DNA of 64,000 nucleotides from a virus (Duplodnaviria; Heunggongvirae; Uroviricota; Caudoviricetes): IMG/VR virus record IMGVR_UViG_3300010429_001737. One strand, 5' to 3'. How positions within the stretch are numbered: the stretch's first letter is position 1; the number at the start of each line of letters is the position of its first letter. The notes under the pieces are model-generated. The model was not told the DNA's origin and made no database searches. It was given only the letters and a program-made list of their open reading frames with translations. The position numbers were made by a program, and so were the translations under genes. This document shows positions 1 to 63,081 of the stretch, one piece after another.

Positions 1-1
1 A

Positions 2-172
2 TCAATAATAAACGATTTAGATTTTGAAAATGAAGCAAAAGCTCATGGAATGACAGTAAAAGAATATCGTCGGTATTTAGAATTTGGAACAATTGAATTT
101 CCATTATTTTTGTTAAAAAGAAAATTAAAATTAATCGAAGAAGAGGAAGACGAAAAACTACCTTGGGACTAA
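2..172 (+). CDS. 3' end of an upstream gene (partial; open from the window edge to the stop at 170-172)
   Basis: Frame 2 is open from position 2 to TAA at 170-172, encoding ...EEEEDEKLPWD*. No start codon lies in the window. Confidence 0.35.
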   Translation, partial: SIINDLDFENEAKAHGMTVKEYRRYLEFGTIEFPLFLLKRKLKLIEEEEDEKLPWD

Positions 173-225
173 CATTTATATAGTATATAATGTATCATAT
201 TAAAATAAATATCAAATAAACAAAA

Positions 226-1500
226 ATGAGTGAAGAATATATGAACAGAGATGATGATTTTGAAGATGAAGACGAAGTTTCGAATGCTGTAAACGATATT
301 TCAAATCTTATGAATAATAACCAAACTCCTCCTGTTCCTAACGCATTTACTCGAAACTTTTTCGTTCCTGGTAGTGAAACAATAACTCCCCAAAGAATAA
401 GAGAATCACGACGAAGAGGCAGAAGAACTTCAACTGTTACACAAGTTCAACCTTCCGCATATTTAACGGGTGAAGCTTTTAGATATGGAAGATGGTTGGC
501 CCCTAGTTCACAAGATAGATGTGAAAGAATCATTGAAGAATTAAAAAAGAAGAATATTGATAAAGTGATTAATAGTGTGAAGCATTTTGCTTTTGTTGAT
601 TTAACGTTTTTTGAATTAACTATGATTATTAATCCTGTAATATCTGATGGTAGAAAGGGGCCTGGTGAAGGCGATACTATTCAGAGTAACGGCTATAAGA
701 TTGTTCTTCAAAAACCATACGATGCTTTTAACGAATCATGTGAAAGAATAAAATTTAAAGAAAAGGTAATTGCTGATTATTACAGAGCAAAGAATCTGAT
801 TATTTTATATTATAATCCATTTCCTTTTAGACCAAGGATAAAGGAATGTATAAACAATATAAATTTATTACCAACATTTACTAAGGTAGATAATTCTAAA
901 GAGTTTCAAAAAGTATTACTTCAGAAGAATGCATCTATGTTTGTTAATACTTTGAAAAAGAATTTAGATAGGCTTTCAACAGACCAAGAAAATTTAAGAA
1001 ACGAAATTGATAACTTTTCTAGAAGAATATTAGTTAATCATCAGACTATAAGAATGAATGTTAAATTAATAGAATCTACTGCTCAGATGATAAGCAATTT
1101 TACAGAAACATTCTTGAAAAATGTTGATGAAATAAAAGAATTACCATTTATTGAAAAAGTTGAAATAACTCAAGACGGTATTAAAGTAACATATGGCGAT
1201 ATTTATATTCATTATATGAATCATGATTATTACATTGGAAATTTTTATGTTCTTATTAAGCCAGATAGAATCGAATTTTATAACACTAACAACGCGAAAG
1301 ATAATTATGACCACCCTCATGTCACAAGACACAGCCCTTGTTTTGGTTCATATAATGAAGATGTTTATAAATTACTGGGAAATCTAGATTTAAAAAGACT
1401 ATGTTTTCTCTTGTATCAATATTTAAAATCATATAATCCACAGTCACCTTATCGTCAAATAACTTCATGGAAAGAAAAAACTAATAGAGGTGAAAAATGA
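226..1500 (+). CDS. hypothetical protein (424 aa), acidic N-terminus
   Basis: Long ORF whose stop overlaps the next gene's start (ATGA). No family recognised by eye. Confidence 0.6.
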   Translation: MSEEYMNRDDDFEDEDEVSNAVNDISNLMNNNQTPPVPNAFTRNFFVPGSETITPQRIRESRRRGRRTSTVTQVQPSAYLTGEAFRYGRWLAPSSQDRCERIIEELKKKNIDKVINSVKHFAFVDLTFFELTMIINPVISDGRKGPGEGDTIQSNGYKIVLQKPYDAFNESCERIKFKEKVIADYYRAKNLIILYYNPFPFRPRIKECINNINLLPTFTKVDNSKEFQKVLLQKNASMFVNTLKKNLDRLSTDQENLRNEIDNFSRRILVNHQTIRMNVKLIESTAQMISNFTETFLKNVDEIKELPFIEKVEITQDGIKVTYGDIYIHYMNHDYYIGNFYVLIKPDRIEFYNTNNAKDNYDHPHVTRHSPCFGSYNEDVYKLLGNLDLKRLCFLLYQYLKSYNPQSPYRQITSWKEKTNRGEK

Positions 1501-1715
1501 CTGAATTACAATTTGAATTTGATACAATGGAAGAGTTACAAGAAGCACAGAAACATTTAGAAGATTATCATGATTGTGAAAAATGTCATGGAAAAATAGT
1601 CGCTATAACAAGTGACCCGTTGGGCAATACTCATTGTGCATATTGTGGAGCAAAAGTTAAATATCCAAAAATGAAAAAAGAGGCATTCGAAAAATGGTTA
1701 AAGGAACTGAAATGA
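1497..1715 (+). CDS. small zinc-ribbon protein (2x CxxC)
   Basis: CEKCHGK...CAYCG gives a four-Cys zinc-ribbon. It is start/stop coupled to both neighbours and heads the Ubl/E1/JAB cassette. Confidence 0.5.
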   Translation: MTELQFEFDTMEELQEAQKHLEDYHDCEKCHGKIVAITSDPLGNTHCAYCGAKVKYPKMKKEAFEKWLKELK

Positions 1716-1945
1716 AAAACACTAAAGTTGAAATAAACGGAAAAGATGTAACAGAAGCAAAATGGTATGAAAAGTTGTTAATAGCATTAGCTATACCTTT
1801 TGTTATATTTTTCTTTCTAGCAATAGTTTTCTTAATATTAGGCATTGTTGTCGTTGTTATGGCTTTCTTAATAATTTTAGCATTTATTTTAATTCCAATT
1901 GCAATTATAGCAGCTCTATTGGGAGGTAAACGTGAAAAACATTAA
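1712..1945 (+). CDS. small membrane protein with two hydrophobic helices
   Basis: ATGA overlap with the preceding gene. Long hydrophobic core IALAIPFVIFFFLAIVFLILGIVVVVMAFLIILAFILIPIAIIAALLGG. Start chosen at the coupled ATG (1712) instead of the track start (1694). Confidence 0.45.
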   Translation: MKNTKVEINGKDVTEAKWYEKLLIALAIPFVIFFFLAIVFLILGIVVVVMAFLIILAFILIPIAIIAALLGGKREKH

Positions 1946-2558
1946 AGTATTTATTAGGCCATCTTTGTATCAGAAGTTAGATTTTATAGCGAAAAATTAT
2001 AAAATAGAGTTAGGTGGTTATTTAACCGGTGAAACTAAAAATGGTAACGTTTACTTATACGATATATTATTACCCGAACAGGCTATTTCAACCGTTCATG
2101 TTAATATTACACCTAGAGACCAAGTACTATTACGAAAGAAATATGGAGACAAGTGCAAGAAAATAATTGGTCATTGGCATTCACATCACGAAATGATGCC
2201 TCATTGGTCGAGTGAAGACGAAAGTAATATGCGTGAGATTATGGAAAATCAGAAATTCTTTGTTTTTATAGTATCAAGCGTTCATGGACATACTATTAGA
2301 TTAAGTATACGTGACCCTATAAATATTGATTTAGAGAACTGTGAATTGTGTCTAAAGTCGTTGTCTTGGGATATGTTTATGAATTCAGTAAATAAAATAC
2401 TCGGGAAGAACGATAGTAAATACACAGATAAAATGTTAACTGATTTTTCGTATGACGACTCATTCTCTGATGAAAAAGACGGATATTCCGAATATTGTAA
2501 CTCAGAAGAAACACCAAATTCAGAGAACAATTTAAATAGTAATAAGGATTATATGTAA
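1932..2558 (+). CDS. JAB/MPN+ (JAMM) zinc metalloprotease, a deubiquitinase-like peptidase
   Basis: E...GGYLTGE followed by HWHSHHEMMPHWSSED fits the JAMM signature E-x(n)-H-x-H-x7-S-x2-D. Confidence 0.7.
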   Translation: MKNIKVFIRPSLYQKLDFIAKNYKIELGGYLTGETKNGNVYLYDILLPEQAISTVHVNITPRDQVLLRKKYGDKCKKIIGHWHSHHEMMPHWSSEDESNMREIMENQKFFVFIVSSVHGHTIRLSIRDPINIDLENCELCLKSLSWDMFMNSVNKILGKNDSKYTDKMLTDFSYDDSFSDEKDGYSEYCNSEETPNSENNLNSNKDYM

Positions 2559-2559
2559 C

Positions 2560-3246
2560 ATGAAAAATGAGATAAGTTTTATGAGACAGAAAGATTTGTT
2601 CGACCCCGTTAATCAAAGATTTAAAATAGTTGTCTTTGGTGCTGGAAGTTTGGGTTCATTTATTACTCTAAATTTAGCTAAATTAGGTTTTAATGACATT
2701 GAAGTGTTTGATTTTGATACAGTTGAAAGCCATAATATTCCAAATCAGTTTTATAAATCTAGTAGCATAGGAGAATTTAAAGTCGAAGCATTAAAAGAAA
2801 TAGTAAAAGATTTTACAGACGTAGAAATAACTACCCATAATGTTAAAGTTGATGAAAAAACAGAAATTCCAATTGGCGAAGTTGTTTATATTATAACATT
2901 TGATACATTAGAAGCAAGAAAGTTGATTTATGAAAAAGTTAAAGATTTTAAGTGTATAGTTTTAGATGTAAGAGTTGGAGGGGAAGAATATGAGATAAAC
3001 ATTGTTGACACAATGAAAGAAAACGAATTATCAGCATGGAAAAAAAGATTTGACATTGAAGTAACAGATTTACCATGTGGGGCACGCTCTATTATTTATA
3101 CGGTAGTTAATATTGCATCTGAAGTAAGTAACATAGTTAAAAAAATAAATAACAATGAAAATTATCCAGGTCGTCTTTTAAGAACTATGAAAAATTACAA
3201 TATTTTAAACAATCTAAATCAAAAGGGAGGTAAAACATATGAGTAA
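2560..3246 (+). CDS. E1-like ThiF/MoeB/UbaA-family adenylyltransferase
   Basis: Rossmann motif VVFGAGSLGSFITLNLAKLG followed by DFDTVESHNIPNQF, which matches the ThiF consensus G-x-G-x-x-G...D-x-D-x-V-x-x-S-N-L-x-R-Q. A candidate catalytic Cys sits in DLPCGAR. Confidence 0.7.
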   Translation: MKNEISFMRQKDLFDPVNQRFKIVVFGAGSLGSFITLNLAKLGFNDIEVFDFDTVESHNIPNQFYKSSSIGEFKVEALKEIVKDFTDVEITTHNVKVDEKTEIPIGEVVYIITFDTLEARKLIYEKVKDFKCIVLDVRVGGEEYEINIVDTMKENELSAWKKRFDIEVTDLPCGARSIIYTVVNIASEVSNIVKKINNNENYPGRLLRTMKNYNILNNLNQKGGKTYE

Positions 3247-3460
3247 ACAAATAACAATCGTCGAAGGCTTGAACGGTGAAGAAAAAAGACTTACAGTGCC
3301 AGATAATTCACTTGTTTCAGACGCTTTAAGAGCTGCTGGTATAAGTGTTGGCAGTGGACGGTCAATTACTTCATTTAGTGATGCCGGTAACATAGAAGCT
3401 GGTGAGCTAGTTAGAGATGGGGAAACTTATCTTTTAACATCAAATCATCATAGCGGATAA
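3239..3460 (+). CDS. small beta-grasp ubiquitin-like protein (ThiS/MoaD/SAMP-like) ending in Gly
   Basis: 73 aa, overlapping the E1 gene. C-terminus ...NHHSG* ends in glycine. Its position right after E1 and JAB matches Ubl operon architecture. Confidence 0.5.
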   Translation: MSKQITIVEGLNGEEKRLTVPDNSLVSDALRAAGISVGSGRSITSFSDAGNIEAGELVRDGETYLLTSNHHSG

Positions 3461-3559
3461 AACTATTTAAACTTTTATTTTTTAAGTTAATTGAAGTAAG
3501 TTAAAGTAATTATTAAGTATTATTAAGACAATAAGTAAATCAAAGAAATAAGAAGAAAA

Positions 3560-3937
3560 ATGAAGAAACACAAGTATCAACTATGGAATAGAATACATAA
3601 TTCTTATAATAATTCGAAGAAGCAAACTCATATTAAAATTGATGATTCTGAAGTTGCTGGTTTTCCTTTTTCTGTATACGTAGTCTCTTCTTTTATTATT
3701 TTACTGGGAATCTTAGTCGTCGTAACTTTTAATATTAACTTAAACGGTATGACAGGTCATTCTGTTTTTTATGAACAGAATCAAGACTTAAATACTAGAG
3801 CTCATAATGTCATAGGTGTTTTGGTTAGTATGTTGTTTTGTGTTACTATAGTTTCCTTTTCTTTTGCTAAATTCTATAAAGATAAGTATAAAAAAGAAAA
3901 TTATAAACTCATGAAATTAAAAAAGAGGTTACAATGA
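3560..3937 (+). CDS. membrane protein (125 aa)
   Basis: Two hydrophobic segments. Coupled to the downstream gene by an ATGA overlap. Confidence 0.45.
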   Translation: MKKHKYQLWNRIHNSYNNSKKQTHIKIDDSEVAGFPFSVYVVSSFIILLGILVVVTFNINLNGMTGHSVFYEQNQDLNTRAHNVIGVLVSMLFCVTIVSFSFAKFYKDKYKKENYKLMKLKKRLQ

Positions 3938-4557
3938 AAAAAAATATTAAAAAAATAAATAACTTGGAAAAGGTTTTATATGGAAAAACTTATGCAAAAG
4001 AAAAATTGTATTTTAATAAAAATAAAATTCTACGACGACAGTGGTTTTCATTATTATTTTGTAATTTAATTTTATTAGTTTCTATAATAGTATTAATGCT
4101 GCATACGTATTACCAGCCTGCTACAGATGGCGTGGTTGTTGATTATGACGGGTTAACAATAAAAGAAAAGCAACATGTTCAAGATATCATGGCCGATGTA
4201 AAAAAAGAGTACTTAGAATATCAGAAGTCTATTATTTTTACAGATGATTTGATTAAACATATGAATTTTGTTCAAAAAACGGAATTATATCTTGATAGAG
4301 TTGATGGTTCTGATGTCTTAGGGTTTAACGGTAATGGTCATATTGTCGTTTTATACACTAATGACACTTTAGCATTAAAGAGAACAATATGTCATGAGTT
4401 ATTACACACTTTTTTTAAAACTTCTGATGGGGCCCACAAGATAATTTATGACGAAGAATATCTAATTCCATGTTTTAAAGAATCTGATTATTTTGCTGCT
4501 GCGCTAAATTTATATTATTACAAGAATAATAACGAGGGGCAAGAAGATGGAAGTTAG
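3934..4557 (+). CDS. membrane-anchored putative HExxH zinc metallopeptidase
   Basis: N-terminal TM helix LLFCNLILLVSIIVLML. HELLH motif at TICHELLHTFF. Confidence 0.4.
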   Translation: MKKNIKKINNLEKVLYGKTYAKEKLYFNKNKILRRQWFSLLFCNLILLVSIIVLMLHTYYQPATDGVVVDYDGLTIKEKQHVQDIMADVKKEYLEYQKSIIFTDDLIKHMNFVQKTELYLDRVDGSDVLGFNGNGHIVVLYTNDTLALKRTICHELLHTFFKTSDGAHKIIYDEEYLIPCFKESDYFAAALNLYYYKNNNEGQEDGS

Positions 4558-4714
4558 CGGTAAAGTTAAATTGTTGCGCGTTAAAGATAGTAACGGTGAA
4601 ATTATAGAAGCTATAGCTCTAGATGATTTGTTTGATTTTATTACAGAATTAAACATAAAAATTCCAGATGTTTATCAAAAATGGGAAGTATTAATGGGGG
4701 TAATTGGTAGATGA
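4547..4714 (+). CDS. small hypothetical protein (55 aa)
   Basis: ORF preceded by a GAGGGG ribosome-binding site. Its stop overlaps the start of the HNH gene (ATGA). Below the size cut-off of the ORF track. Confidence 0.25.
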   Translation: MEVSGKVKLLRVKDSNGEIIEAIALDDLFDFITELNIKIPDVYQKWEVLMGVIGR

Positions 4715-5049
4715 CTACTTATAATGTTAAAATTTTTACTAGAGAGTATGGTGTAGAATTACATGTTAGCGATAGTATATGTTTTCTATGTGGAGAACCT
4801 TTTAATTCTACAACACACAAAAAGACAAAACATCATTCTATTCCAAAGTTTCTAAAACCAAAATTTAATGTTGTTGTTCCAATAGGCAAATCGTGTCATC
4901 ATGAAATGAATAAAATCTTCGAACCTAAATTATTATATCACAAGAACAGTGTAAAAATGTTGATGGATAGTTTAACAAAAAATCATCTTAAAGTTATGAA
5001 TAAAGTTAAAAAAATTCATGACAATATTGACACAGAGGTGAAAAAATAA
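4711..5049 (+). CDS. HNH endonuclease
   Basis: CFLCGEP...TKHHSIPKF...GKSCHHEMN gives a CxxC...HH...CxxH arrangement typical of the HNH zinc-finger nuclease. Confidence 0.55.
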   Translation: MTTYNVKIFTREYGVELHVSDSICFLCGEPFNSTTHKKTKHHSIPKFLKPKFNVVVPIGKSCHHEMNKIFEPKLLYHKNSVKMLMDSLTKNHLKVMNKVKKIHDNIDTEVKK

Positions 5050-5050
5050 A

Positions 5051-5257
5051 ATGGACATCGACGTTATAAAAAGAAACATTGGAAAGCATTGTAAAATTAT
5101 TTTAAAAAATAATTATGAATACACAGCAGTGATACCAGACTTCAATGGTACTTCGTTTGAAATAAAGGATAAGTTTAATAAAACCACTATCATTGAATGT
5201 TCTTTCATTGCGTTTATACAAGTGCAAGATGAAAATCAGGAGGATTATAAACAATGA
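5051..5257 (+). CDS. hypothetical protein (68 aa)
   Basis: ORF coupled to the primase gene by an ATGA overlap. Confidence 0.4.
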   Translation: MDIDVIKRNIGKHCKIILKNNYEYTAVIPDFNGTSFEIKDKFNKTTIIECSFIAFIQVQDENQEDYKQ

Positions 5258-8200
5258 TTGATATTCCTGAAAATTTGAGAAAGGGTACTTATCGATTCGT
5301 TAGACTTGAGAAGGAAACCAAGCGGCCTGTTGACAAAAACTGGACTACTGAAAATAATTATGCATTCGATAGTCCTATTATAATTGACTGGATTGCTAAT
5401 GGCAATAATTATGGCTGTTGTGGAGGATTCGGAGGTTTAGTGATTTTAGATTTAGATAATATGGATTTTGTATATGAGATAGAAGATTTGTTACCATCAA
5501 CCTTTACAGTAGAAACTGGTTCTTCAAAAAGACATTATTATTTTGAAGTTGATAATCCTGAAAAGATAATTTTGGATAAAGACGGAAAACACATTGGAGA
5601 AATACAAGGTGCTGGCGCTCAATGTGTTGGGCCGGGTAGTATCCATCCTGTTACAAAAAAAGAATATAAGGTTATTAATGATATTCCAATAGCTAAGCTA
5701 GATACCCCTTTGATTAATTATATTAAGGAAAATTATTCAATAATGAAGAATTTTGAAACAAAAAGCCCGATGTGGAATAAATACCAGACGAATAGTATTT
5801 CTGACCAAATACGTTTAACTGATTTAATTGATACTAGTAAATTTAAAAAGACACCTGCCGGTGAATTGTATGGCAGTCATCCTATTCATGGTAGTTCTAC
5901 CGGGATGAACTTTTTTATTAATCCTGATAAGAATCTCTGGCACTGCTTTACAGGAAACCAAATTATTTTTACAGAGGCGGGAATGAAGAAAATAAAAGAT
6001 GTTGCTGTCGGTGAGAAAATATGGGGAACTAATAAAAGAATACAAAAAGTGAAGACGAAGTTTGCGAGGAAGTTTACTGGAAAAATGTATACAATTGATA
6101 CCAGTTATATACATCCGGCGATTAGAGTTACTGAAGGTCATCCGTTTTTAGTTGGAAGTTTGACATATAAACATCGTCGTTATTACAAAGATGATTTACA
6201 AAATGTAAAAATAAATTGGAAAAACGTTGAAAATATTGTTCCCGGAAAAGACTATTTAATGATAAAGAAAAGCTTTGGTAATTTGAATCAAATTGATATG
6301 AGACCGTTTAAGAATAAGAATCATCCATCTAGAGTTTCTGATGTTCTTTTATTAGACAAGGAGCTTGGCGAATTAATCGGATGGTGGCTAGCGGAAGGTA
6401 GCATTACAAAAACTAGTCATGGCTATCCTCGAATAAACTTTACACTATCATATTATGAAACAGAAAATATAAAAAGATTGCAATATTTATTGCAAAAAAA
6501 ATTAAAAGTTAAAGCGACGATTCGTAGATATAAGGACAGGGGAACCTCGATTATTCGAATAGGATGTGGTCCCTTTGCAAGATTTTTAGAACATTATTTT
6601 AGAAAAGGCGCTAAAAATAAACAACTTGGGATATTTGTTAATGCTAATCGTGATTTTCTTGATGGACTGACACAAAGTTATATTAAGGGTGATGGTCATG
6701 AATCTGTTAATAAACGCTCAGTTAGTTCTGTTTCGGAAAAATTGTGTCGTGAAATTCAGTTTGTTCTTTTACGACTCGGGTATAATTATAGAATGCCGAC
6801 TCCTCGACCAGCAAAGCAAAAGTTCGATAAAAAAAGAAACGTGTATTATAATTCAGCCCTAACGTGGCGAATTAATTATAATAAAGTAAAAAAACAAGAT
6901 AAGTTTTTTCAAAACGACGAATATATGTTTTTAGGTATAAATAAAATTACACATAGAACATGTCGTGAAATGGTATATAACCTAGAAACAGAAGACCATA
7001 CTTATCTTTTACCATTTATTACTCATAATTGTTTTCGTGATATGTCAGGGGGCGACTCTCTCGCGTGGATTGCGATTCAGGAAGGAATATGTCAATGTCA
7101 TGATTTTTCCGATGGTGGAAAAAAACTAAGAGGTAAAGATTTCTTAGATGTAATTAAAATAGCAAAAGAAAAGTATAACTTAAAAATCGATATGGACAAA
7201 GTCGCTAAGATGCCTCTAAAAACATGGGAGGATTACCAAATTTCACCAGTATTATTAGATAATTTATCTCTTGACGGTTTGGAATTAGTTTATTCTGAAG
7301 ATGTTAAGAATCTTAATGTTCCCGATGTTGAGTGGTTAGTTGATGAAATTATACCTATTAATTCATTTTATGTCTTTGCCGGAAGAAGCGGAGCATATAA
7401 AACATTGTCATCATTGCATATGGCTTTTTGTATTTCAGAAGGACTTCCTGTGTATGGGAAATATAAGACAAAACAAATGCCAGTTTTATATCTTAATGAA
7501 GAAAACACATGGGAAATATTTAAACCGATGGTTGAAAATGCTAGGAATGGGTTACGAACACAAGGGTCGAAGGAATTATCTTTTTCAACATTTCAGAATT
7601 TATCATTAGATATGGTTGATGTAAGTGGACGGGCAAAATTAGAGAAAATGATAATTAAATCTGGAGCCAAGGTAATATTTTTTGATTCTTTTAAGAGATA
7701 TATTAGGTTTGATGAAAATGATGCCAATAAAGTAAATGAATTTTTTAATTTTATACTTAAACCTCTTAGAATAAAATATGGATTAACAATTATAGTTCTA
7801 CATCATACAAAGAAAGAAAATCCTAACTCAAAATATACTGTAGATAAAAAGGACTTAATAAGGGGGTCTAGCGACTTAGTTAATATAGCTGATGGAATTT
7901 TATTTTTTGAAAAAGGAGTAAGACCTTTAACATATACTTTATATCAACTTAAATCTAGAGTATCAGAGGAATTCGACCCGAAGATGATAAAAATAATGTA
8001 TGATAAGGATGGGGGATTTGGTTTTGAAGAACTAACAAGTGCATCTAAAGATGTTGAAAAGTTAGCTACAGATGCCTGTGCAAATGAAATGTTTGAACAT
8101 ATTATGGCAACTAGTATGGGTGAGTTTAAAGCTGAAGTTATGCACGAAAGGTATGATGCAAAGTATAAAAAAGGCCCCGTAACAAGTGCGCTAAATAAAC

Positions 8201-8343
8201 TTCAGACTCAAGAAATATTGTTAAAGTCATCAAGAGGTATGCTTAAAGTAAATAAATTACATCCAACAGTTCAAGATTATGAAAACGGAAGAATAGATTT
8301 AGATAAATGTCAAAGGCTGTTAGATTCTGAAAATCCAGATTAA
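5254..8343 (+). CDS. DNA primase-polymerase fused to a RecA-family (AAA_25/DnaB-like) replicative helicase; intein-containing precursor
   Basis: The N-terminal prim-pol-like region (GCCGGFGGLVILDLD, HYYFEVDN) is followed by a zinc motif, HPIHGSSTG...NLWH-C. After intein removal this motif reads NLWHCFRDMSGGD. The C-terminus carries Walker A VFAGRSGAYKT, Walker B VIFFDSF and the RepA/DnaB-type IIVLHHTKK motif. Confidence 0.85.
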   Translation: MIDIPENLRKGTYRFVRLEKETKRPVDKNWTTENNYAFDSPIIIDWIANGNNYGCCGGFGGLVILDLDNMDFVYEIEDLLPSTFTVETGSSKRHYYFEVDNPEKIILDKDGKHIGEIQGAGAQCVGPGSIHPVTKKEYKVINDIPIAKLDTPLINYIKENYSIMKNFETKSPMWNKYQTNSISDQIRLTDLIDTSKFKKTPAGELYGSHPIHGSSTGMNFFINPDKNLWHCFTGNQIIFTEAGMKKIKDVAVGEKIWGTNKRIQKVKTKFARKFTGKMYTIDTSYIHPAIRVTEGHPFLVGSLTYKHRRYYKDDLQNVKINWKNVENIVPGKDYLMIKKSFGNLNQIDMRPFKNKNHPSRVSDVLLLDKELGELIGWWLAEGSITKTSHGYPRINFTLSYYETENIKRLQYLLQKKLKVKATIRRYKDRGTSIIRIGCGPFARFLEHYFRKGAKNKQLGIFVNANRDFLDGLTQSYIKGDGHESVNKRSVSSVSEKLCREIQFVLLRLGYNYRMPTPRPAKQKFDKKRNVYYNSALTWRINYNKVKKQDKFFQNDEYMFLGINKITHRTCREMVYNLETEDHTYLLPFITHNCFRDMSGGDSLAWIAIQEGICQCHDFSDGGKKLRGKDFLDVIKIAKEKYNLKIDMDKVAKMPLKTWEDYQISPVLLDNLSLDGLELVYSEDVKNLNVPDVEWLVDEIIPINSFYVFAGRSGAYKTLSSLHMAFCISEGLPVYGKYKTKQMPVLYLNEENTWEIFKPMVENARNGLRTQGSKELSFSTFQNLSLDMVDVSGRAKLEKMIIKSGAKVIFFDSFKRYIRFDENDANKVNEFFNFILKPLRIKYGLTIIVLHHTKKENPNSKYTVDKKDLIRGSSDLVNIADGILFFEKGVRPLTYTLYQLKSRVSEEFDPKMIKIMYDKDGGFGFEELTSASKDVEKLATDACANEMFEHIMATSMGEFKAEVMHERYDAKYKKGPVTSALNKLQTQEILLKSSRGMLKVNKLHPTVQDYENGRIDLDKCQRLLDSENPD
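5944..7029 (+). mobile_element. intein (about 362 aa) with a LAGLIDADG homing-endonuclease domain, inserted in the primase zinc motif
   Basis: Starts with CFTGNQIIFTE...VTEGHPFLV (N-terminal Hint blocks). Two LAGLIDADG-like motifs (LGELIGWWLAEGS and FLDGLTQSYIKGDGH). Ends with ITHN, and the next extein residue is Cys (CFRDM). In frame with the host ORF. Confidence 0.8.
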
Positions 8344-61970: not shown

Positions 61971-62204
61971 ATGAATAAGTATTTTAAGTATGGATTATAT
62001 ATGCAAATACCGACAGCCGGCATATTAGGCGCATTTGTCCTATATTGGCTAATTAATAACGTTAATCTATTATCGCTATTAAGTGGTATATTTTTTGCTG
62101 CAATAGCTCTATACTTTATAGCTTCGTTCGTTCTATTAATAGTTGGTGCATTCGTAGAGGCTGATAGAAAGAAGAAGGAAGCAGAAAACGGTGAATATTA
62201 TTAA
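61971..62204 (+). CDS. small membrane protein, possible partner of the SPFH protein
   Basis: Palindromic class B promoter and GAAAGGAGGT ribosome-binding site. Two TM helices. Overlaps the SPFH gene start. Confidence 0.45.
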   Translation: MNKYFKYGLYMQIPTAGILGAFVLYWLINNVNLLSLLSGIFFAAIALYFIASFVLLIVGAFVEADRKKKEAENGEYY

Positions 62205-63081
62205 AATGGAACAAATTACTTTACTAATAATAATCGCCTGTGCTTTCTTTGGTGTTATAGTAGCCTTATTAGCCTTTCTCAGAGTTGTTCCTCAATATAC
62301 ACGAGGAGTTAAATTAACATTCGGACGATATAGTGGATTAATGGAACCAGGTCTTAATTTCATAGTTCCTATTGTTCAAACATATGAACTTGTCGATATA
62401 AGACAGCGAACAATTGATATGCCACCTCAAGAAGTTATGACAAAGGATAATGTAAACTTGAAAATAGACGGAGTTGTTTTCTATAACGTAATTAACCCAA
62501 AGGATGCTTTCTTAAATGTATCTGATTTGCGTTCTCAGATAGAGGACAAAGCAACTTCTGAACTAAAGGAAGTTCTTAGCACTAGAACAATGTCAGAAGC
62601 TTTATCCCAGAGAGAAAACATTGCTAACGAATTAATGAAAAAACTAGAAGGAGCTGTAAACGACGAAGATGCACCTAATGATAAGACAAAGGCATGGGGC
62701 GTTACTATAAAAAGTGTTCAGATAAACAATATAGAATTGCCAAAGGAATTAACTCGAGCTATGGCTAAACAAGCTGAAGCAGAGAGAGAGAAAGAAGCTA
62801 GAAAGACTAAAGCTGTTGGAGAAGAAGAAGCTTCAAAGAAGTTCGAAGAAGCTGCTCAAATTTATAACAGAAACCCAGCTGCGTTAAGACTAAGAGAGTT
62901 ACAAACATTCCAAGAAATCGGTGTAGAACATAACAGTTTAATGATTGTAATCCCATCTAGTATGTCAAGTGGTAATGCGAACTGGACAATCCCGTTAGGA
63001 AGACAAGAGATGACAGAGCAAGAAAATAAAGCCAGAAAAGAGCAACTCCAGAAGAATAGAAACCGGCTAGAATGTAAGTAA
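62191..63081 (+). CDS. SPFH/band-7 (stomatin/prohibitin/HflKC-like) domain protein
   Basis: N-terminal TM. RGVKLTFGRYSGLMEPGLNFIVPIVQTYELVDIRQRTIDMPPQEVMTKDNVNLKIDGVVFYNV...WGVTIKSVQINNIELPKELTRAMAKQAEAEREKEA is a classic stomatin core with a coiled-coil tail. Confidence 0.8.
   Translation: MNIIKMEQITLLIIIACAFFGVIVALLAFLRVVPQYTRGVKLTFGRYSGLMEPGLNFIVPIVQTYELVDIRQRTIDMPPQEVMTKDNVNLKIDGVVFYNVINPKDAFLNVSDLRSQIEDKATSELKEVLSTRTMSEALSQRENIANELMKKLEGAVNDEDAPNDKTKAWGVTIKSVQINNIELPKELTRAMAKQAEAEREKEARKTKAVGEEEASKKFEEAAQIYNRNPAALRLRELQTFQEIGVEHNSLMIVIPSSMSSGNANWTIPLGRQEMTEQENKARKEQLQKNRNRLECK

What the first reader, a model, noticed from the sequence alone, without database searches (positions are those of the whole stretch)
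1497..3460. Compact ubiquitin-like conjugation cassette on a virus-like element: zinc ribbon, membrane protein, JAB/MPN+ protease, E1-like protein and a Gly-terminated beta-grasp protein
Five translationally coupled genes encode the minimal parts of a prokaryotic Ubl system. The E1 has the ThiF motifs GxGxxG and DxDxVexSN. The JAMM protease has HxHx7Sx2D with the upstream Glu. The last gene is a 73 aa protein ending in Gly. No CD-NTase or E2 is visible, so this is neither CBASS nor a classic Bil layout. It is closer to an archaeal SAMP/UbaA/JAMM (sampylation) set, or to the phage-borne Ubl/JAB pairs implicated in tail assembly. Here the cassette sits immediately upstream of the replication module of a tailed-virus-like element. 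A virus-encoded complete Ubl-E1-JAB system could modify virion or host proteins, or subvert host Ubl-based defence. The beta-grasp protein ends in ...HHSG rather than the usual GG, and the partner zinc ribbon and TM protein are unusual.
Basis: partly seen in the sequence, partly recalled or inferred. Interest (0 to 1): 0.8.

Follow-up and report, generated by a model that had tools for sequence, protein, structure and literature searches.

The report
Virus-borne ubiquitin-like conjugation operon with E2
A virus-like element carries what looks like a complete ubiquitin-style protein-tagging kit (tag, E1 activator, E2-like carrier, JAB protease); the E2-like gene lies just upstream of the flagged region and defines a large family with no database annotation that I could find.

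Summary
Window 1497-3460 holds five tightly packed + strand genes. These include a Prok-JAB protease with an intact JAMM motif, a 228-aa ThiF-type E1 and a 73-aa protein ending in Gly.

The interpretation needs three corrections.

(1) An E2 candidate is present. The 424-aa gene directly upstream (226-1500; its stop overlaps the next start) ends in a domain modelled at high confidence. That domain resembles UBC E2 enzymes, and an invariant HPH...Cys aligns with the E2 HPN...Cys.

(2) The conserved unit is four genes: Ubl, E2-like, JAB and E1. E2-like, JAB and E1 are present in all 17 independent loci. The Ubl is found wherever sequence upstream of the E2-like gene is available (14 loci). The zinc ribbon and the membrane protein have no homologue in any other locus.

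(3) The set is therefore not an E2-less sampylation set. In parts and usual gene order it parallels Bil operons, but it fails Bil membership: the E1 is a single domain, and the E2 family has no Pfam, NCBIfam, PHROG or PADLOC match.

The Ubl family profile matches Pyrococcus SAMP2 (E 2.5e-6). Close relatives sit among viral replication genes. One relative is a Ubl-E2 fusion. The biological role and the targets are unknown.

The parts
226..1500 (+). E2-like protein (424 aa). Residues 1-75 are disordered. Then come an N-terminal alpha/beta domain (about 80-212), a long coiled coil (224-304) and a C-terminal UBC-like domain (311-420) carrying H363-P-H365 and Cys372.
1497..1715 (+). 72-aa zinc-ribbon protein (CxxC...CxxC). 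It is a lineage-specific insertion, not a conserved part of the system.
   Evidence: The motif is read from the sequence. Family hits are all below threshold. It has no homologue in any other locus.
1694..1945 (+). 83-aa membrane protein (probably two transmembrane helices). It is a lineage-specific insertion.
   Evidence: The hydrophobic stretch is read from the sequence. The only hit is a sub-threshold holin-like match. It has no homologue in other loci.
1932..2558 (+). JAB/JAMM metalloprotease (208 aa) with an acidic, probably disordered tail. Active-site residues are E26, H83, H85, S93 and D96.
   Evidence: Pfam Prok-JAB E 5e-10. PADLOC CBASS-type JAB models score down to 2.7e-11. It is conserved upstream of E1 in all related loci.
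2560..3246 (+). Minimal single-domain ThiF-type E1 (228 aa). Conserved residues are the R9-Q10 arginine finger, G27xGxxG32, D51xD53, K74, D115, R120 and an invariant Cys173.
   Evidence: Pfam ThiF E 1.4e-19. PDB hits include UBA3, UBA2, MccB, MoeB and Cap2. 120 homologues of 134-282 aa (mostly 215-255 aa) were found. Invariant columns come from the alignment.
3239..3460 (+). Ubiquitin-like modifier (73 aa) of the SAMP2/ThiS type. It is encoded in mature form and ends at the invariant Gly73.
   Evidence: The family profile matches P. furiosus SAMP2 (5lda_B) at E 2.5e-6 and PF1061 at 6e-6 over the full length, ending at the terminal GG. Family members hit Pfam ThiS, SAMP2 and DUF348. Gly73 is invariant in the alignment. 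The single-sequence model is low confidence but has beta-beta-alpha-beta-beta order.

Best explanation
Window 226-3460 is one operon that encodes a self-contained ubiquitin-like protein-conjugation cascade. It belongs to a large family of Ubl / E2-like / JAB / E1 modules carried by viruses and other mobile elements. I found no description of this family.

Proposed mechanism (all steps inferred):
1. The ThiF-type E1, presumably a dimer, adenylates the C-terminal Gly73 of the 73-aa SAMP2-like modifier.
2. The modifier probably moves as a thioester to the invariant Cys173 of the E1.
3. It then moves to the invariant Cys372 in the UBC-like C-terminal domain of the 424-aa E2-like protein.
4. That protein, through its variable N-terminal domain and coiled coil, chooses the target and transfers the modifier to a lysine without a separate E3.
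5. The JAB protease trims modifier precursors in relatives that have C-terminal tails or Ubl-E2 fusions, and/or removes the modifier from targets. Here the modifier is already mature, so deconjugation or regulation is the more likely job.

What is shown:
- the domain families;
- the invariant residues;
- the fold resemblance of the E2-like domain;
- the conserved gene set.

What is inferred:
- every chemical step;
- the absence of an E3;
- target choice by the E2-like protein.

The biological purpose is not established. The module sits among early/replication genes in this element and in its closest relatives. I therefore favour a role in the element's own infection cycle (modifying host or viral proteins, possibly against host defence) over a passenger defence system.
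For: Components:
- JAB and ThiF score above the Pfam cut-offs.
- The Ubl family profile matches SAMP2.
- H365 and C372 are invariant in 101 family members. E1 Cys173 and the adenylation residues are invariant in 35.

Context:
- In 17 independent loci anchored on the E1, all have E2-like and JAB genes upstream on the same strand. A Ubl is found in the 14 loci where sequence upstream of the E2-like gene is available.
- In relatives the Ubl carries 1-15 extra residues after the invariant Gly, or is fused to the E2-like protein (...GNQVSG|SLSF...). This is the arrangement that JAB enzymes process in Bil and Bub systems.
- Some loci carry 2-5 E2-like paralogues, as expected if this protein sets target specificity.
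- No rhodanese, cysteine desulfurase or cofactor-synthesis gene accompanies the module.
Against: - No biochemical data exist.
- No sequence profile links the E2-like family to any Pfam E2 family or to BilB.
- The 73-aa protein could not be modelled confidently.
- The E1 family has NIPNQF where, from memory, canonical E1/MoeB/ThiF enzymes have SNLxRQ. One ATP-contacting Arg is therefore replaced, which leaves adenylation chemistry unproven.
- The best NCBIfam matches of the E1 are short ThiF sulfur-carrier activators, though they score far below the cut-offs.
- The viral nature of this contig is not proven.
Confidence: 0.72

Rival explanations
1. The same four-part conjugation machinery acts as a passenger defence or competition system (Bil-like), not as part of the element's own cycle. 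The mobile element would carry it to tag and disable competing viruses' proteins, as Bil tags a phage tail fibre.
For: The usual gene order Ubl-E2-JAB-E1 equals that of BilABCD. All characterised bacterial relatives (CBASS type II, Bil) are anti-phage systems. Some family members sit in cargo-like regions of integrative or conjugative elements, next to TraG, DUF932, PIN, SymE or integrase and ParB genes. The JAB and E1 hit PADLOC CBASS models.
Against: The closest relatives (58-62% E1 identity) and this window place the module among replication and nucleotide-metabolism genes: PolB, PrimPol-helicase, thymidylate synthase, QueD/QueE. Pattern scans of 185,579 species genomes found only two loci, both on short contigs of archaeal MAGs. 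No CapH/CapP or CapW-type regulator was seen next to it.
Confidence: 0.2
2. The module is a sulfur-carrier pathway. The E1 adenylates the ThiS-like protein, which becomes a thiocarboxylate and donates sulfur for a modified nucleotide, cofactor or metabolite. JAB unmasks the Gly, as in CysO/Mec+, and the 424-aa protein is a sulfur relay or an unrelated enzyme.
For: The E1's best NCBIfam matches are ThiF sulfur-carrier adenylyltransferases (E 3e-22, 79 bits). Ubl family members hit ThiS and MoaD models. JAB-ThiS-E1 sulfur-assimilation clusters exist (Iyer et al. 2006). One relative lies near QueD/QueE nucleotide-modification genes.
Against: All ThiF and MoeB matches are far below the curated cut-offs (79 bits against 159). 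No locus contains a rhodanese domain, cysteine desulfurase or acceptor enzyme. The obligatory partner has a UBC-like domain with an HPH...Cys motif. E2-like paralogue expansion and Ubl-E2 fusion fit protein conjugation, not sulfur transfer.
Confidence: 0.06
3. One reading: an E2-less sampylation-type set (Ubl + E1 + JAB). The E1 alone would conjugate the Ubl, the zinc-ribbon and membrane proteins would be functional partners, and the 424-aa gene would be unrelated.
For: Archaeal sampylation works without an E2 (established knowledge). The Ubl is SAMP2-like. The E1 is a single domain like UbaA (weak NCBIfam UbaA hit, E 5.8e-9, far below cut-off).
Against: The 424-aa gene is translationally coupled to the block. 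Its family co-occurs with E1 and JAB in all 17 loci and carries an invariant His/Cys pair in a UBC-like domain. The zinc ribbon and membrane protein occur only on this contig.
Confidence: 0.04

Closest known systems
Type I / Type II BilABCD (bacterial ISG15-like) operons
   Same: They share the four parts (Ubl, E2, JAB peptidase, E1) and, in most relatives, the gene order Ubl-E2-JAB-E1. There is no E3. The Ubl has an invariant Gly followed by a short removable tail. Both are found on mobile DNA.
   Different: BilD is a multidomain E1 (inactive plus active adenylation domains and a mobile Cys domain), whereas this E1 is a single domain of about 217-240 aa. The E2-like protein has no detectable sequence similarity to BilB. 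It keeps an HPx motif that the 6c and 6d (Bil-type) E2-like proteins are reported to lack, and it carries an extra N-terminal domain and coiled coil. The Ubl is SAMP2/ThiS-like. The module lies in viral replication regions. In this window the Ubl lies after E1 and is already mature.
Archaeal sampylation (SAMP1-3 / UbaA / JAMM1)
   Same: The Ubl profile's best solved match is P. furiosus SAMP2, in the entry where it is bound to its JAMM protease. Both have a single-domain E1 and a JAMM deconjugase. Two relatives lie in archaeal MAGs.
   Different: Sampylation has no E2, and its genes are chromosomal housekeeping genes. Here an E2-like protein is always present and the genes form one mobile operon. 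The E1 scores far below the UbaA cut-off (35.7 against 450 bits).
Type I Bub (6E.1) operons
   Same: One relative (L018) encodes a Ubl-E2 fusion, like BubAB, which a JAB domain cleaves.
   Different: Bub E1 and E2 use Tyr and Ser oxyesters and always include the DUF6527 serine protease BubE. Here both catalytic positions are invariant Cys, and no DUF6527 hit was found.
Type II CBASS Cap2/Cap3
   Same: The JAB and E1 domains hit the PADLOC and NCBIfam Cap3 and Cap2 models.
   Different: There is no CD-NTase and no E2-E1 fusion. The substrate is a dedicated Ubl. All scores are far below the curated cut-offs.
Canonical eukaryotic/archaeal UBC E2 enzymes
   Same: The C-terminal domain has the UBC order of elements. 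Its motifs YYIGxF, HPH and Cys align with YxGGxF, HPN and the catalytic Cys.
   Different: His replaces the catalytic-loop Asn. The last UBC helices are shortened. The domain is fused to a coiled coil and an N-terminal domain. There is no Pfam UQ_con hit.
JAB-ThiF gene pairs of crAss-like and Fipvunavirus phages (crAss001 gp77/gp76; Fpv3 gp53/gp52)
   Same: The E1s are homologous (24-34% identity). A JAB protein lies directly upstream, preceded by a 420-444-aa protein, next to primase and UDG genes.
   Different: The upstream proteins (gp78, gp54) are not detectably E2-like with my profiles. They share GYMHSH...C.G rather than HPH...C.G. No Ubl gene was found.

Membership tests
ThiF/E1 superfamily | Pfam ThiF domain above the gathering score, with the nucleotide-binding GxGxxG, the Asp of the DxD motif and the Mg-binding Asp | tested here: met
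   PF00899 scores 70.7 bits against a cut-off of 28.1. G27/G29/G32, D51/D53, K74, D115 and R120 are invariant.
JAB/JAMM (MPN+) metalloproteases | The E ... HxHx7Sx2D motif and a Pfam Prok-JAB score above cut-off | tested here: met
   PF14464 scores 39.7 bits against 25. E26, H83, H85, S93 and D96 are read from the sequence.
Ubiquitin-like beta-grasp modifiers (ThiS/MoaD/SAMP) | A beta-grasp fold with a C-terminal Gly available for adenylation | tested here: inconclusive
   The family profile matches SAMP2 and PF1061 at E 2.5e-6 and 6e-6, ending at the terminal Gly. Two of 8 family members hit Pfam ThiS and two hit SAMP2. The window protein alone hits nothing, and its model has pLDDT 51 with beta-beta-alpha-beta-beta order.
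UBC-fold E2 enzymes | The UBC fold, with the catalytic Cys after an HPN-type loop | tested here: inconclusive
BilABCD (Type I/II) | Four genes Ubl, E2, JAB and E1, usually in that order | tested here: met
   All four parts are present here. The order Ubl-E2L-JAB-E1 is seen in most related loci. In the window the Ubl follows E1.
BilABCD (Type I/II) | [quoted passage not shown] | tested here: not met
   The E1 is 228 aa, with one ThiF domain covering residues 20-216. Family members are 134-282 aa, mostly 215-255 aa.
BilABCD (Type I/II) | An E2 homologous to BilB (CEHH / 6C-6D type) | tested here: not met
   hhalign of the E2-like profile against E. aridi BilB gives E 0.61. PADLOC gives no hit for the 424-aa protein.
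Bub (6E) operons | A DUF6527 serine protease, and Ser/Tyr in place of the catalytic Cys residues | tested here: not met
   The window's six proteins have no DUF6527 hit. Cys173 (E1) and Cys372 (E2-like) are invariant.
Type II CBASS | A CD-NTase gene and a Cap2 E2-E1 fusion | tested here: not met
   No CD-NTase was found among the neighbours. E1 and E2-like are separate genes. The Cap3 model scores 21 bits against a cut-off of 200.
Archaeal sampylation (UbaA/SAMP/JAMM) | E2-independent conjugation by a UbaA-type E1 | tested here: not met
   An E2-like gene is obligatorily linked. The UbaA model scores 35.7 bits against 450. E2 independence itself cannot be tested in silico.
PRTRC (ParB-related, ThiF-related cassette) | NCBIfam PRTRC_ThiF and PRTRC proteins A-F above their cut-offs | tested here: not met
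   PRTRC_ThiF scores 37.6-49.3 bits against 144.75. PRTRC_A scores 15.5 against 101.8 for one relative only. Other components have no hits.
Phage tail-assembly Ubl/JAB pair (lambda TAPI/TAPK type) | A Ubl next to a JAB+NlpC/P60 protein inside a tail gene cluster, with no E1 | tested here: not met
   An E1 is present. There is no NlpC/P60 domain. The neighbours are replication genes. The JAB has only a weak hit to a PHROG tail family (E 7e-4).

The most novel reading that the evidence does not exclude
This is a fifth, undescribed lineage of prokaryotic ubiquitination-like systems, after CBASS-II, Bil I/II and Bub I/II. It is carried mainly by viruses of uncultivated archaea and bacteria and is used offensively during infection. 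Its E2 is closer in motif logic (YxxGxF, HPx, Cys) to canonical eukaryotic and archaeal UBC enzymes than any bacterial defence E2. That would make viruses a reservoir, or even a conduit, for the E2 fold on the way to the eukaryotic ubiquitin system. Syntenic remnants occur in cultivable crAss-like and Flavobacterium phages, which would make the biology directly testable.
Probability: 0.3. Interest if true: 0.85.

Novelty: new variant of a known kind. Interest (0 to 1): 0.62.

Why it matters
Ubiquitin-like conjugation in prokaryotes has so far been characterised as host anti-phage defence (CBASS type II, Bil) or as archaeal housekeeping (sampylation).

Here the whole cascade is encoded by virus-like elements, inside their replication modules. 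It belongs to a family with hundreds of members and no annotation in the libraries I searched. If active, it would show the invader using protein tagging. It would also supply a compact E1/E2/Ubl/JAB set for biochemistry, and add a UBC-like E2 lineage with an HPx-Cys active site to the debate on where the eukaryotic ubiquitin machinery came from.

The variable N-terminal domains and the paralogue expansions of the E2-like protein suggest a built-in way to switch targets.

Tried and rejected
- Word-indexed homology searches with the 73-aa and the 424-aa proteins returned only the query itself. The exhaustive HMMER search was needed to find the E2-like family.
A narrower E1 alignment worked.
- The afdb50 fold library was unavailable.
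- The BFVD viral fold search gave one unnamed viral homologue (E 4e-5) and no link to crAss001 gp78.
- I tested whether crAss001 gp78, Fpv3 gp54 or the Xanthomonas phage 892-aa protein belong to the E2-like family. My HMMs did not detect them, so this remains only a lead.
- PRTRC, Bil, Bub, CBASS and lambda-type tail Ubl/JAB memberships were tested and not met.
- The promoter and terminator scan was uninformative.
- Attempts to find capsid, terminase or portal genes, or a host signal, failed.
- Literature searches for virus-encoded Ubl/E1/E2/JAB systems found none in the held library. The nearest item is the Borg deSAMPylase expansion, which involves JAMM proteases only.


Full report
**1. What is in the sequence**

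Window 1-5300 carries only + strand genes, packed with overlaps. The five flagged ORFs exist exactly as described: 1497-1715, 1694-1945, 1932-2558, 2560-3246 and 3239-3460. Neighbouring genes overlap by 22, 14 and 8 nt or are 1 nt apart. Several are preceded by GGAGG-like ribosome-binding sites. The same gene calls appear on an independently assembled 108.6-kb ENA contig and on two short contigs from other samples.

- The 208-aa protein is a Prok-JAB domain above Pfam's cut-off (E 5e-10). Its motif is E26 ... H83-x-H85-x7-S93-x2-D96 (and read from the sequence).
- The 228-aa protein is a ThiF-family E1 (E 1.4e-19). Its closest solved relatives are the NEDD8 and SUMO E1 catalytic subunits, MccB, PaaA, MoeB, UBA5 and Cap2.
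- The 72-aa protein has a CxxC...CxxC zinc ribbon.
- The 83-aa protein is a small membrane protein.
- The 73-aa protein ends ...HHSG.

The factual core of the observation therefore holds.

**2. The missing E2**

The 424-aa ORF at 226-1500 lies outside the flagged coordinates. Its TGA overlaps the ATG of the zinc-ribbon gene, so it belongs to the same translationally coupled string. It has no hit in Pfam, PADLOC, PHROGs or NCBIfam.

An exhaustive HMMER search found 879 cluster representatives at E <= 0.001. In an alignment of 101 of them, H365 and C372 are invariant. G338, P364, G374, L392, L400, Y403 and W415 are nearly invariant.

The AlphaFold2 model built on that alignment is confident: mean pLDDT 86.9, and above 90 for residues 80-420. 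It shows:
- an N-terminal alpha/beta domain;
- a coiled coil of about 80 residues;
- a C-terminal domain with a helix, a four-strand meander, the HPH loop, Cys372 and two helices, which is the order of elements of the UBC fold.

The P-values are 0.001-0.0025.

Against this, Foldseek gave no significant PDB hit and no sequence profile reaches any E2 family. I rate the E2 assignment as probable, not proven.

**3. The conserved unit**

The E1 has 120 listed homologues, mostly 215-255 aa, at 36-64% identity. I fetched the neighbourhoods of E1 homologues from metagenomic contigs, IMG/VR contigs and GTDB genomes. I then scanned all ORFs with HMMs built here for the four families.

- All 17 independent loci with upstream sequence have an E2-like gene and a JAB gene upstream of the E1 on the same strand.
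- A Ubl of 67-86 aa is found in all 14 loci where the sequence upstream of the E2-like gene is available.
- The usual order is Ubl, E2-like, JAB, E1.

Variants:
- the Ubl is fused to the E2-like protein in L018 (...GNQVSG|SLSF...);
- the Ubl has a 15-residue tail in L019;
- the Ubl lies between the E2-like and JAB genes in L016;
- some loci carry 2-5 E2-like paralogues (L007, L014, L025);
- unrelated small genes or homing endonucleases are inserted in some loci (L007, L018-L020, L023).

The window is a variant in two ways: the Ubl follows the E1, and it stops exactly at the invariant Gly. The zinc-ribbon and membrane proteins have no homologue in any other locus, so they are local insertions rather than system components.

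**4. The Ubl**

Alone, the 73-aa protein hits nothing, and its single-sequence model is poor (pLDDT 51, although the order is beta-beta-alpha-beta-beta). An 8-member family profile matches P. furiosus SAMP2 (5lda_B, E 2.5e-6) and PF1061 (6e-6) over the full length, ending at the terminal Gly. Family members hit Pfam ThiS, SAMP2 and DUF348. Only the last Gly is invariant, so HHSG is unremarkable within this family.

**5. The E1**

The invariant residues include the N-terminal R-Q arginine finger, GxGxxG, DxD, K74, D115, R120 and Cys173. There is no separate Cys domain, no ubiquitin-fold domain and no rhodanese domain. The family has NIPNQF where, from memory, canonical enzymes have SNLxRQ. This is a caveat for the chemistry.

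**6. Context**

- The closest relatives lie among PolB, thymidylate kinase and synthase, SHMT, QueD/QueE, RNA ligase and PolA-UDG genes.
- Others lie in IMG/VR viral contigs.
- Some lie in integrative or conjugative contexts with TraG, DUF932, PIN and SymE, or integrase and ParB.
- The only two hits in 185,579 species genomes are short contigs of a Woesearchaeota MAG and a Methanosarcinales MAG.
- In this window the module lies 1.8 kb upstream of an intein-containing PrimPol-helicase, an endonuclease I-like protein and an SNF2 helicase.
- I could not find capsid, portal or terminase genes, or a host signal. 'Tailed virus' is therefore unverified. 'Virus-like mobile element' is reasonable.

**7. 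Comparison with known systems**

- Bil. BilABCD operons have the same parts and order. Their Ubl also has a conserved Gly plus a removable tail, and they have no E3. However, BilD is a multidomain E1, and BilB shows no similarity to the E2-like family.
- Bub. Bub systems use Ser/Tyr oxyesters and a DUF6527 protease. Here both catalytic positions are Cys.
- CBASS type II needs a CD-NTase and a Cap2 fusion.
- Sampylation lacks an E2.
- PRTRC models score far below their cut-offs.
- The lambda-type TAPI/TAPK pair lacks an E1.

The module therefore works like a Bil-type cascade but is not a member of any named family that I could test.

The held literature contains no description of a virus-encoded complete Ubl/E1/E2/JAB system. 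The nearest item is the expansion of JAMM 'deSAMPylases' in Borgs. Earlier comparative-genomics papers outside the library may have noted the family. I cannot exclude that.

**8. Verdict**

It is a four-component Ubl conjugation module of a large unannotated family carried by viruses and other mobile elements, and this copy has private insertions and a pre-matured Ubl. The mechanism is inferred from homology, invariant residues and context. The biological role is open; I favour a function in the element's own cycle over passenger defence. I classify it as a new variant of a known kind, with interest 0.62.

Noticed in passing
window 5254-8343: A PrimPol / CHC2 zinc finger / AAA_25 helicase fusion is interrupted by an intein carrying a LAGLIDADG homing endonuclease.
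   Followed up: no
window 3560-4557: Directly after the Ubl gene come a two-TM 125-aa protein and a 207-aa protein with an N-terminal TM segment and a CHELLH (HExxH) motif. The latter has a weak Peptidase_M78/IrrE hit (E 0.009). Neither has a homologue in the other loci, so any link to the Ubl module is unknown.
   Followed up: partly
window 13657-47621: There are giant ORFs of 2500, 1241, 944 and 3081 aa, with only lectin-, Ig- and DUF2793-like fragments recognisable. No capsid, portal or terminase gene was found in the 64 kb, so the kind of element is unsettled.
   Followed up: partly
L014 1-4366; L025 2892-4633; L007 1689-3232: The E2-like gene is expanded in tandem. L014 has five copies, only two of which carry HPH...C.G. 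L025 has two copies with Cys-rich N-termini. L007 has one full copy plus one copy of the C-terminal domain only. This suggests alternative target adaptors or inactive UEV-like partners.
   Followed up: partly
L018 3584-5056; L019 3613-3873; L016 3637-3846: L018 has a Ubl-E2-like fusion protein. In L019 the Ubl has a 15-residue tail after the invariant Gly. In L016 the Ubl lies between the E2-like and JAB genes. The position and maturation state of the Ubl therefore vary across the family.
   Followed up: yes
L021 (crAss001 gp78-gp76), L001 (Flavobacterium phage Fpv3 gp54-gp52): Cultivable crAss-like and Fipvunavirus phages carry a syntenic trio next to primase and UDG genes: a 420-444-aa protein, a JAB protein and ThiF. 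ThiF is annotated 'thiamine biosynthesis protein'. The first proteins share GYMHSH...C.G, are not detectably E2-like, and no Ubl was seen.
   Followed up: partly
window 3239-3460: The Ubl gene has 39% GC, against 26-32% for all its neighbours. This may reflect amino-acid composition or a separate acquisition, which would fit its unusual position after the E1.
   Followed up: no
window 2560-3246 and alignment A4: The whole E1 family has NIPNQF where, from memory, canonical E1/MoeB/ThiF enzymes have SNLxRQ, so a phosphate-contacting Arg is replaced by Asn. It also lacks the CxxC zinc site pairs of MoeB and ThiF.
   Followed up: no
window 62191-63081: An SPFH/Band 7 protein (Pfam E 7.6e-42; PHROG 200 'lipoprotein') is encoded on the element.
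   Followed up: no
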